The translations under genes and the position numbers were made by a program. A stretch of DNA of 64,000 nucleotides. Source: the human T2T-CHM13v2.0 reference genome, Homo sapiens. The notes beneath the pieces were generated by a model that worked only from the letters and a program-made list of their open reading frames with translations, had not been told where the DNA came from and did no database searches. Positions 52,223-53,474 of the stretch are shown here, piece by piece; the first letter of the stretch is position 1, and the number at the start of each line of letters is the position of its first letter. The stretch is taken from assembly GCA_009914755.4 (NCBI GenBank), contig CP068257.2:992001-1056000 (forward strand), written 5' to 3'.

Positions 52223-53474
52223 CTAAATCTCCTCCATCAGAGCCCGGTATTCTTCCTCGCTGAGGGGTGCTTCCAGCGAGGCGGCCTCTTACAAGGCCTC
52301 CAGCTCCCCCGCGGCCTCCATTTCTAGGAAAGGTTGTGCCTGCTGAAGAAACTCCGGGCTCGCCAGGAGCTCATCCAGCAGCAGGATGGAGTGGAGTGCA
52401 GACGAGCACCCCGGCTCCAGGAGCGCCTGGGAGGGTGCCGAGATGCCTTGCATCTGCCCCTGCCGTGTGGAGGCCTCTGGGGGCGTGGGCTGGTGAGGTG
52501 GAGTTGCCCCTGCTTGAGGTTCCACGCCACACCGGCGACCTGGGTACCCCTGCTCCACCCCCACCACGGACTTCCCTGGGACGCGGGTGGCGCAAGCACA
52601 CCTTGGCCCTGTGGCCCCGCTTGAGAGGGCCCAGGCTGCCCCACCGCGCAAGTGCCTGGAAGGCCGTCGCGCTGCGCGTCCCAGTCCTTCCGGATTTTGT
52701 CCTTGTGTGGATGCCACCAAGGAGTGTGAGTGTGGGAGAGCGCCCCTTCTGGAGGAGCCTGGGCGGTGTAGGCAAAATCCCCATGTGCTGGGGCAGGTTG
52801 GGAGATCCCCTCTGCCTGCGCGGCCTGGCTGGGCAGGAGCACAGGGACGGCCCTCAATCCATGGCTCACGAAAGCCCACTGTGGGAGAGCATGTGTGGTG
52901 CAGGAAGCCCCTTTCCCCACGCGCCAGTGTGGGCAAAGGCGACCCACGAGAGAGCAGGGTGTCACCCAATTGGGGCTGCATTGCACCGGATGCTTGCCTG
53001 CGTGGGCGCCCTGCCAGACTGTCCCCAGTGCCTGGCTCTTCGATTCTGAAACCAGATCTGAATCCTGGACTCCGGGAGGCCCGTCTCTCTGGCCAGCTCT
53101 TCCCTGGCAGCAATGCCTGGAAAGCGATCCTTCTCAAAGGCTCGGAGGAGCAGGGCGGTTTGGGATCCGGTGATGGCAGTCCGCTTTCGTCTGCCTTTTT
53201 GCGGGTCGCGTCTCCCGGGCCAGGGCCGAGATTGCCGCCGGTGCTGCCTCAACTGGCATGATCTCTCATTCTGAAACCAAATCTGGACCCTGGGCTCCGG
53301 AATGTCGATGCCCTGGGCCAGCTGTTCTTTGGTGGCAATGCCCGGGTACAGGTTCCGCTCAAAGCAGGCTCGCAGGGCATCGCTTTGACTCGGGGTCGAA
53401 AGGAGTATCATTCGCCTTCCCAGTCCCTGGGCTTCCTCGGGGAGGGTGTCGTCCAAAGCTGTCAGGAGGGCCAT
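52223..53474 (-). pseudogene. DUX4-like locus of unit 7. The N-terminal double-homeodomain ORF is intact; the C-terminal half is disrupted by a TGA after HD2, a further stop, a frameshift, and a premature stop in the tail.
   Basis: C-terminal reading: ...[57 protein letters not shown] (ORF end 52289). The homologous terminal stop (cta on +) is at 52223-52225. Confidence 0.8.
52962..53474 (-). CDS. Intact 170-aa ORF encoding the N-terminus plus both homeodomains of a DUX4-like protein. It lacks the C-terminal transactivation region and is truncated by TGA.
   Basis: ATG = cat at 53472-53474 on +; stop tca at 52962-52964. [170 protein letters not shown]. Both WFQN helix-3 motifs are intact. Confidence 0.6.

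What the first reader, a model, noticed from the sequence alone, without database searches (positions are those of the whole stretch)
52962..53474. Unit 7 retains an ATG-initiated, TATA-preceded ORF for a homeodomain-only DUX4-like protein (170 aa)
Unit 7 keeps an open frame from the initiator ATG (53474) through both homeodomains. The WFQNERS and WFQNRRARH recognition-helix motifs are intact. A TGA falls after ...NAAPIG, which replaces the GGHPAPSW of DUX4. The product would resemble the short DUX4-s isoform or DUX4c class: a DNA-binding double homeodomain without the C-terminal activation domain. That class is described in the literature as non-toxic and potentially competitive. A canonical TATAAA box lies about 135 bp upstream (53608-53617). 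HD1 carries several substitutions in the N-terminal arm ([14 protein letters not shown] where DUX4 has [16 protein letters not shown]), which may affect DNA binding. Whether the locus is ever transcribed from within heterochromatin is unknown. No polyadenylation signal is evident downstream before the LSau-like region and beta-satellite.
Basis: partly seen in the sequence, partly recalled or inferred. Interest (0 to 1): 0.6.

Follow-up and report, generated by a model that had tools for sequence, protein, structure and literature searches.

The report
Known DUX1 gene copy, chr21 heterochromatin
The 170-codon double-homeobox reading frame is really there, but it is the already described human DUX1 gene, a truncated relic of a DUX4-type retrogene in short-arm heterochromatin, and nothing in the sequence shows that its survival is more than chance.

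Summary
An ATG at 53474 opens a 170-codon frame on the minus strand. It has two Pfam homeodomains and ends at a TGA (52964-52962). A TATA-like box lies 139 bp upstream, and there is no AATAAA or ATTAAA within the repeat unit.

The feature is not new. The protein is 98% identical to human DUX5. Its exact sequence is already in public collections. A 2026 paper places 'DUX1' at T2T chr21:1,045,474-1,044,962, which is this ORF shifted by exactly 992,000. DUX1 has been known since 1998 as a DNA-binding, non-toxic, homeodomain-only protein.

- The box reads TATAAG and is shared by five of the seven copies.
- A private upstream ATG (53553) opens an out-of-frame 64-codon uORF that overlaps the start.
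- HD1 has lost half its poly-Arg arm and carries R73C. R73 is essential in DUX4.
- The stop is a single TGT>TGA change. Behind it the DUX4-like tail carries two frameshifts and another stop.

Evidence on function:
- pN/pS is 0.76 (P=0.25), inside the range of the dead sibling copies.
- Neutral simulation keeps such a frame open in 7.5-9% of copies, so one in seven is expected.
- The literature reports chr21 arrays as hypermethylated and without a polyA signal.

Verdict: an ordinary, already known feature.

The parts
51521..54266 (-). Unit 7. A 2.75-kb D4Z4-like island holding the whole decayed DUX4-type retrogene, between two beta-satellite blocks.
   Evidence: TRF puts 68-bp beta-satellite at 44190-51520 and 54267-58467. 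The island aligns to six sibling islands at 83-87% identity.
52962..53474 (-). Main ORF of 170 codons plus TGA. This is the DUX1-form double-homeodomain protein.
   Evidence: Two Pfam homeodomains. 98% identical to human DUX5 and the exact protein is on record. The coordinates equal the published chr21 DUX1 locus minus 992,000.
53241..53420 (-). Homeodomain 1 (residues 19-78). It is 82% identical to DUX4 HD1. Changes include R22M, R23I, W26S and R73C.
   Evidence: Pfam gives 49 bits and the match starts only at profile position 8. DUX4 HD1 gives 66 bits over positions 1-55. The roles of R20-R23 and R73 in DUX4 are from PMC5990521.
53016..53195 (-). Homeodomain 2 (residues 94-153). It is 97% identical to DUX4 HD2. 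The RRKR arm and the Q-N-R motif are intact.
   Evidence: Pfam 72 bits over profile positions 1-55. The only differences are V101I and P150W.
52962..52964 (-). TGA stop created by one base change. All six sibling copies have TGT (Cys) here.
   Evidence: Island alignment.
52223..52961 (-). Dead remainder of the DUX4-type coding region. It stays in frame 1 until a private 16-bp deletion near 52890. It then reads in frame 3 to about 52525, then in frame 2. A further in-frame stop lies inside the remnant of the C-terminal activation domain (…[27 protein letters not shown]).
   Evidence: tblastn of P0243, a 385-aa DUX4-like protein, against the island. The 16-bp deletion is seen.
53608..53613 (-). 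TATA-like box TATAAG, 139 bp upstream of the ATG.
   Evidence: It is shared with u4, u5, u6, u8 and with all six related human contigs. It corresponds to the TATAA box of the published HEFT1/DUX1 promoter (PMC12376486).
53671..53679 (-). GC-box position. It reads GGGACGGGC where u1, u2 and u6 have GGGGCGGGC.
   Evidence: The variant is shared by the related human contigs that cover this position, so it is a subfamily trait and not a private lesion. Its effect is unknown.
53359..53553 (-). Upstream ATG in a weak context (CACATGC) and its 64-codon out-of-frame uORF, which overlaps the main ATG. In related copies this ATG is in frame and gives the 197-aa DUX3/DUX5 form.
53521..53523 (-). Site of a 2-bp (CT) deletion in a CT run. 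It is private to the window copy, and it is what turns the 197-aa form into the 170-aa form.
   Evidence: All six human-derived contigs L001-L006 and all six sibling units have the extra CT.
44190..51520 (.). Beta-satellite block (68-bp period) downstream of the gene. It holds the nearest polyA-like hexamer, ATTAAA at 48670.
54267..58467 (.). Beta-satellite block (68-bp period) upstream of the gene.

Best explanation
This is a copy of the known human gene DUX1, of the DUX1/DUX3/DUX5 subfamily. It sits in a degenerate D4Z4-like unit embedded in beta-satellite on an acrocentric short arm, most probably T2T-CHM13 chr21 p13.

Shown by the sequence: the gene began as a full-length, intronless DUX4-type retrogene. 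One TGT>TGA change ended the frame after codon 170. The C-terminal two-thirds then decayed: a 16-bp deletion, a second frameshift, and a stop inside the activation-domain remnant. A 2-bp CT deletion in the leader put the upstream ATG used by DUX3 and DUX5 out of frame. That leaves the 170-aa form behind a 64-codon overlapping uORF.

Inferred: at this locus the gene is silent, or at most sporadically transcribed, and the open frame has survived by chance rather than by selection.

From published experiments on DUX1: if the protein is made, it enters the nucleus and binds TAAT-type sites. Judging from the sequence, binding would rest mainly on the intact HD2, with a weakened HD1. It cannot recruit p300/CBP because it has no C-terminal domain. 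It therefore does not switch on the toxic DUX4 programme. At most it could occupy DUX4 sites as a weak competitor.
For: Identity:
- Two homeodomains.
- 98-99% identity to proteins that cluster with human DUX5 Q96PT3/NP_036281.2, and the exact 170-aa sequence is already on record.
- HD1 is 82% and HD2 97% identical to DUX4. The published figures for DUX1 are 81 and 95.
- The ORF has the same length and strand as 'DUX1, chr21:1,045,474-1,044,962', and both ends are offset by exactly 992,000.
- The setting, partial D4Z4-like units about 0.6 kb short of the canonical size and interspersed with beta-satellite, is what that paper and PMC12963445 describe.

History of the gene:
- Nonsense change and 16-bp deletion.
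- Frame map of the tail.
- 2-bp leader deletion and uORF.

No sign of constraint:
- Lineage pN/pS is 0.76 (13 synonymous, 29 non-synonymous changes; P=0.25). Copies with stops range from 0.78 to 1.56, and u4 is at 0.53.
- The chance of an open frame with its ATG is 7.5-9% per copy.
- Within the DUX1/3/5 subfamily there are 4 synonymous and 3 non-synonymous differences (P=0.07). Three of the four synonymous changes are CpG transitions.

Silence:
- No polyA signal in the unit.
- Chr21 p13 array scored 0/26 for polyA, and arrays on chr13/15/21 are 'consistently hypermethylated'.

Protein properties:
- DUX1 binds DNA, localises to the nucleus, is non-toxic in C2C12 cells and mouse muscle, and has no activation activity in yeast.
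Against: - A DUX1 cDNA and protein were reported in the TE671 rhabdomyosarcoma line, and DUX1 activated a reporter in co-transfection. Some copy of this subfamily can therefore be expressed, and the protein may not be purely passive.
- HD2 shows 5 synonymous against 5 non-synonymous changes (ratio 0.33, P=0.078). This is a weak hint of past constraint.
- The main ATG has a strong Kozak context (GCGATGG) and the uATG a weak one, so leaky scanning could still reach the main ORF.
- The assignment to chr21 rests on matching coordinates, not on a sequence comparison.
- I could not retrieve the UniProt DUX1 entry (O43812) to count residue differences.
- Methylation and transcription of this particular copy were not measured here.
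Confidence: 0.8

Rival explanations
1. DUX1 is a working gene kept by selection. It is transcribed from its own TATA-box promoter in some cell types, and its homeodomain-only product regulates targets or restrains DUX4 by competing for its sites.
For: - cDNA, protein and DNA binding have been reported for DUX1.
- The 2026 comparative paper calls it 'functionally active'.
- HD2 is 97% identical to DUX4, with a pN/pS of 0.33.
- The main ATG has a strong Kozak context.
- Competition has been shown for the homeodomain-only family member DUXA.
Against: - The selection tests are not significant, and unit 7 is no different from dead sibling copies.
- The synonymous excess within the subfamily is explained by CpG transitions, and the sample is biased towards intact ORFs.
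- HD1 has lost R22, R23 and R73. The first two belong to the minor-groove arm, and R73A abolishes DUX4 activity.
- There is no polyA signal.
- An overlapping uORF precedes the start.
- Arrays on chr21 are reported as hypermethylated.
- No DUX protein has been shown in normal cells.
Confidence: 0.12
2. One reading: a previously unrecognised DUX4-s/DUX4c-like variant that unit 7 has specifically preserved, together with its own TATA box.
For: - The architecture matches DUX4-s: two homeodomains and no activation domain.
- A TATA-like box is present.
Against: - The protein and very probably the locus are already published as DUX1.
- The TATA box is common to the array.
- Truncation is by a nonsense mutation and not by splicing.
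- DUX4c keeps most of the tail.
- Survival of the frame is within chance.
Confidence: 0.03
3. The frame is only an inert sequence relic that is never transcribed or translated from any copy. The published DUX1 cDNA and protein signals would then be cross-reaction or read-through artefacts from the hundreds of related repeats.
For: - Primer sets and antibodies for D4Z4-family products cross-detect many paralogous loci.
- Holland et al. judged DUX1-5 'most likely non-functional'.
- The open frame is expected by chance.
Against: - An antiserum raised against DUX1 residues 4-21, which differ from DUX4, was used in the published work.
- The promoter fragment was reported as active in reporter assays.

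Neither result could be examined at source, because the 1998 and 2001 papers are not held.
Confidence: 0.05

Closest known systems
Human DUX1 (UniProt O43812; Ding et al. 1998) and its sisters DUX3 and DUX5 (Beckers et al. 2001)
   Same: - A 170-aa double-homeodomain protein ending …NAAPIG.
- 98% identical to DUX5 over the shared part.
- Intronless, preceded by a TATAA-type box, inside 3.3-kb-family repeats with beta-satellite on acrocentric short arms.
- Same position as the published chr21 DUX1 locus.

   Different: - Compared with DUX5 the window copy has Leu18, Gln51 and Trp150 where DUX5 has Pro, Glu and Arg.
- It lacks a CT dinucleotide in the leader, so it cannot make the 197-aa form.
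- The residue differences from the UniProt DUX1 entry itself could not be counted.
DUX4 (full length, 4q35 D4Z4)
   Same: - Same retrogene body.
- HD1 is 82% and HD2 97% identical.
- Remnants of the whole C-terminal region, including the [14 protein letters not shown]…EEYRAL motif, are still recognisable downstream.

   Different: - A stop at codon 171, two frameshifts and a second stop remove the activation domain.
- There is no pLAM or polyA signal.
- The box reads TATAAG where DUX4 has TACAA.
- The unit is 2.75 kb and not 3.3 kb, and the copies are not homogenised.
DUX4-s (short splice isoform of DUX4)
   Same: Both are homeodomain-only products of about 160-170 aa. Both are non-toxic and could occupy DUX4 sites.
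   Different: - DUX4-s comes from the 4q/10q gene by use of a cryptic splice donor and has DUX4's own homeodomains (established knowledge).
- Here the truncation is genomic, a nonsense mutation.
- HD1 also differs at 11 of 60 positions.
DUX4c (DUX4L9, 4q35)
   Same: It is also a DUX4-family protein from an isolated, degenerate D4Z4 unit, and it lacks the extreme C-terminal activation motif.
   Different: DUX4c is identical to DUX4 up to residue 342 and is 374 aa long. This product stops at 170, so it is not of that class.
DUXA
   Same: A double-homeodomain protein without activation potential. It has been shown to compete with DUX4 on its targets. It is the best experimental model for what a DUX1-type protein could do.
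   Different: DUXA is an intron-containing gene of a different clade, is induced by DUX4, and has much more divergent homeodomains.

Membership tests
DUX1/DUX3/DUX5 subfamily of acrocentric 3.3-kb-repeat DUX genes | Two paired-type homeodomains in one intronless ORF | tested here: met
   Pfam Homeodomain twice, E=1e-33, in a continuous frame.
DUX1/DUX3/DUX5 subfamily of acrocentric 3.3-kb-repeat DUX genes | Near-identity to the named human proteins, including the characteristic N-terminus MALLTALDD…GRRMILLS and the C-terminal end …IRCNAAPIG followed by a stop | tested here: met
   98% identical to DUX5 Q96PT3 (P0135) over 170 aa. The exact sequence is on record as P0121.
DUX1/DUX3/DUX5 subfamily of acrocentric 3.3-kb-repeat DUX genes | 170-aa form (DUX1) as opposed to the 197-aa form (DUX3/DUX5) | tested here: met
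   The upstream ATG is out of frame because of a 2-bp deletion. Six related contigs give 197 aa.
DUX1/DUX3/DUX5 subfamily of acrocentric 3.3-kb-repeat DUX genes | Embedded in a D4Z4-like unit associated with beta-satellite on an acrocentric short arm | tested here: met
   The unit and the beta-satellite are shown directly. The chromosome is inferred from the exact coordinate offset to the published chr21 locus and from the chr21 p13 entry in Table 1 of PMC12963445.
DUX1/DUX3/DUX5 subfamily of acrocentric 3.3-kb-repeat DUX genes | TATAA-box promoter (HEFT1) upstream of the ORF | tested here: met
   TATAAG at 53613-53608. This shows the sequence only; promoter activity was not tested.
DUX1/DUX3/DUX5 subfamily of acrocentric 3.3-kb-repeat DUX genes | Transcribed and translated in human cells | not testable with these tools
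   Only literature reports for the subfamily are available. There are no data for this copy.
DUX4 (functional full-length) | C-terminal activation domain in frame with the homeodomains | tested here: not met
   A TGA at codon 171, a 16-bp deletion, a second frameshift and a stop inside the activation-domain remnant.
DUX4 (functional full-length) | Downstream pLAM-type polyadenylation signal | tested here: not met
   No AATAAA or ATTAAA within the unit; the nearest is 4.3 kb away. Chr21 p13 is scored 0/26.
DUX4-s | Produced from a DUX4 gene by alternative splicing within the ORF | tested here: not met
   The truncation is a genomic TGT>TGA change. The architecture is nevertheless the same.
DUX4c | About 374 aa, identical to DUX4 up to residue 342 | tested here: not met
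   The ORF ends at residue 170.

The most novel reading that the evidence does not exclude
DUX1-type copies such as this one might be briefly transcribed when acrocentric heterochromatin is demethylated, in the cleavage-stage embryo, the germline or hypomethylated tumours. Their homeodomain-only product would then act as a built-in competitive brake on DUX4, as has been shown for DUXA. The CT-slippage site in the leader would switch individual copies between a 197-aa form and a uORF-dampened 170-aa form.
Probability: 0.05. Interest if true: 0.55.

Novelty: already known. Interest (0 to 1): 0.1.

Why it matters
It matters little as a discovery. The gene, the protein, its lack of toxicity and even this locus are already in the literature.

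Its practical value is as a caution. DUX4-like open frames in acrocentric pseudo-arrays are expected by chance, and they cross-react in DUX4 assays. Any claim of function therefore needs locus-resolved RNA and methylation data.

The small additions made here may help in designing copy-specific assays:
- the private CT deletion and the uORF it creates;
- the R73C change and the loss of arm residues in HD1;
- the exact list of lesions in the tail.

Tried and rejected
- AlphaFold2 on an alignment of 37 close relatives gave a low-confidence model (mean pLDDT 47, pTM 0.19). It shows three helices per homeodomain but cannot tell whether W26S or R73C harm folding. No fold search was run on it.
- An exact-sequence look-up of three candidate canonical DUX1 sequences found two on record, but without a UniProt name. 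The O43812 entry could not be compared.
- A search of paper texts for DUX1 peptide strings found nothing.
- The primary papers (Ding 1998, Beckers 2001) and Zeng 2014 are not held.
- A search with the tail's translation returned no named DUX4. It did return homeodomain-plus-tail proteins, and one of them (P0243) was used to map the frames.
- Comparing L001-L003 with the window for selection was rejected as biased. Those contigs were retrieved precisely because they encode the identical protein, so L004-L006 were added.
- I first read the GC-box change (GGGACGGGC) as a private promoter lesion. It is shared by the related human contigs that cover it, so I dropped that reading.
- The first BLAST of the unit with its flanks was swamped by beta-satellite hits.
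- The first simulation run timed out.

Full report
**1. The observation**

On the minus strand an ATG at 53474 opens a frame of 170 sense codons that ends at a TGA at 52964-52962. The translation is [26 protein letters not shown]…[12 protein letters not shown]…[30 protein letters not shown].

Pfam finds two homeodomains (E=1e-33). The closest solved structures are DUX4 HD1-HD2 (5z6z, E=8e-79). Against DUX4, HD1 is 82% identical and HD2 97%.

A TATA-like box lies at 53613-53608, 139 bp upstream of the ATG. No AATAAA or ATTAAA occurs between the stop and the end of the repeat unit. The nearest is an ATTAAA at 48670 in beta-satellite.

Three points need correcting:
- The box reads TATAAG and not TATAAA.
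- The HD1 recognition helix carries Cys where DUX4 has R73.
- An upstream ATG was overlooked.

**2. The surroundings**

The window alternates between 68-bp beta-satellite blocks and D4Z4-like islands of about 2.75 kb. Seven islands carry the homeobox region. They are 83-87% identical to one another in a star-like pattern, so this is a non-homogenised pseudo-array.

Every other copy is broken. u1, u2, u5, u6 and u8 have in-frame stops, and u6 and u8 also have 1-bp indels. u4 has GTG in place of the ATG.

The TATAAG box is common to u4, u5, u6, u7 and u8, and u2 has TATAAA. It is therefore an ancestral feature of the array, not something unit 7 'kept'.

**3. How the 170-codon frame arose**

- At codon 171 all six siblings read TGT (Cys). 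Unit 7 reads TGA, a single T>A change.
- Downstream the sequence still matches the DUX4-type coding region. It stays in frame 1 until a private 16-bp deletion near 52890.
- It then reads in frame 3 to about 52525, and then in frame 2.
- The frame-2 stretch holds the remnant of the C-terminal activation domain, itself interrupted by a stop: …[52 protein letters not shown].

The unit is thus a whole DUX4-type retrogene. Its first 170 codons happen to remain open, and its last two-thirds carry four disabling lesions.

**4. The leader**

Unit 7 and its close relatives have an ATG at 53553 (CACATG where the sibling units have CACAGG). In six human-derived contigs that are 98.4-99.3% identical to unit 7 over their shared length (L001-L003; L004-L006 are of the same type), this ATG is in frame and gives a 197-aa protein, MPAEVHGSP…, which is the DUX3/DUX5 form.

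The window copy alone lacks a CT in a CT run at about 53522. As a result the upstream ATG opens a 64-codon out-of-frame uORF that ends 115 nt past the main ATG.

The uATG context is weak (CACATGC) and that of the main ATG is strong (GCGATGG). Leaky scanning is therefore possible, but the uORF should lower output.

The GC-box position reads GGGACGGGC. This variant is shared by the related contigs that cover it, so it is a subfamily trait of unknown effect.

**5. Identity**

- The best database matches are 99% and 98% identical. Their cluster holds human DUX5 (Q96PT3, NP_036281.2). The exact 170-aa sequence is already on record, from human-associated metagenome contigs, which most likely represent human DNA.
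- Holland et al. 2007 record DUX1, DUX2, DUX3 and DUX5 as intronless sequences of the 3.3-kb repeat family in acrocentric heterochromatin, absent from build 35.
- A 2026 comparative study locates 'DUX1 on chromosome 21 (chr21:1,045,474-1,044,962)' in pseudo-D4Z4 arrays marked by beta-satellite. It notes that the sequence after the stop matches DUX4 after a frameshift. That interval is 513 bp on the minus strand, and both ends equal the window ORF's coordinates plus 992,000.
- I therefore infer that the window is T2T-CHM13 chr21:992,001-1,056,000 and that this is the same locus.
- Table 1 of PMC12963445 lists chr21 p13 with 26 partial D4Z4-like units in beta-satellite and polyA 0/26.

**6. What is known of the protein**

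- DUX1 was cloned in 1998 from a rhabdomyosarcoma line. Its promoter (HEFT1) has a TATAA box where DUX4 has TACAA, and the protein binds a TAAT-core site.
- DUX1 and DUX5 are non-toxic in C2C12 cells and mouse muscle.
- No DUX protein has been shown in normal tissue.
- In DUX4 the R20-R23 arm contacts the minor groove, and N69, R73, N144 and R148 are each essential.
- Unit 7 has R20 R21 M22 I23, W26S and R73C in HD1. Its Pfam match for HD1 starts only at profile position 8 (49 bits, against 66 for DUX4 HD1). HD2 is complete at 72 bits.
- I infer that HD2 carries most of the binding.

**7. Is the frame maintained?**

- Against the consensus of the six siblings, unit 7 has 13 synonymous and 29 non-synonymous lineage-specific changes. 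The pN/pS is 0.76 with binomial P=0.25. HD1 gives 0.64 and HD2 gives 0.33 (P=0.078). Copies with stops range from 0.78 to 1.56, and u4 is at 0.53.
- A simulation used the array's own substitution spectrum. It keeps the frame open with its ATG in 7.5-9% of trials. Indels are rare here, only two in seven copies across the ORF.
- One open copy among seven is therefore expected.
- Within the DUX1/3/5 subfamily the ORF shows 4 synonymous and 3 non-synonymous variable sites (P=0.07). Three of the four synonymous changes are CpG transitions, and the sample is biased towards intact ORFs.
- Variation in the ORF (7/510) is not significantly lower than in the dead tail (21/860, P=0.24).
- There is no solid evidence of purifying selection.

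**8. Expression**

This could not be measured here. The literature reports that D4Z4-like arrays on chr13, 15 and 21 are consistently hypermethylated. Together with the missing polyA signal and the uORF, this makes stable expression from this copy unlikely.

**9. Verdict**

- The feature is the already known DUX1 gene copy. It is best read as a chance-surviving open remnant of a decayed DUX4-type retrogene in silent heterochromatin.
- The competing view, a selected and expressed modulator of DUX4, is not excluded. It has only weak support here.

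Noticed in passing
window 28014-29498 (+), unit u4: The inverted copy u4 carries a longer uninterrupted frame than unit 7. It runs for 494 codons from a GTG. 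About 356 of these are DUX4-homologous codons (28101-29168) covering both homeodomains and most of the tail, with no stop or frameshift. The canonical ATG is GTG, and no in-frame ATG precedes the homeodomains. Its lineage pN/pS is 0.61 (P=0.016). Neutral simulation gives P(no stop)=0.009 for its 94 substitutions. This suggests the lineage stayed under coding constraint longer than its neighbours, or was copied more recently from a working gene.
   Followed up: partly
window about 22580-31456: There is a local inversion and palindrome. The beta-satellite block 23953-27320 runs opposite to every other block. u4 (+) and u5 (-) face each other tail to tail as an inverted repeat (arms 27888-29168 and 29595-30875, 86% complementary, 426-nt spacer). 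The partial island 22580-23952 holds inverted matches to 29219-29797.
   Followed up: partly
window 53521-53523, and loci L001-L006: The DUX1 (170 aa) and DUX3/DUX5 (197 aa) forms differ here only by a CT dinucleotide in a short CT run in the leader. All six human-derived contigs have the CT, and the window copy lacks it. The public 170-aa and 179-aa entries from those contigs are gene-caller start choices, not true short forms.
   Followed up: yes
window 53622-53624 (-): A private in-frame ATG lies just upstream of the TATA box (CCTACATGTGG where the siblings have CCTGCCTGCGG). A read-through transcript starting further upstream would give a 220-aa product. A 220-aa member (P0141) exists in the DUX5 cluster.
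   Followed up: no
loci L002 and L003, matching window 52023-51889: About 25 differences from the window, shared by L002 and L003, are packed into roughly 130 bp at the 3' end of the unit. The rest of each contig is about 99% identical. This could be a gene-conversion tract from another repeat copy or an assembly chimera in the metagenome contigs.
   Followed up: no
window, all seven islands: The CpG observed/expected ratio is 0.52-0.60 at 64-66% G+C in every island. C>T and G>A make up 42% of singleton substitutions. This fits long-term germline methylation with CpG decay across the whole array, and unit 7 (0.55) is no exception.
   Followed up: partly
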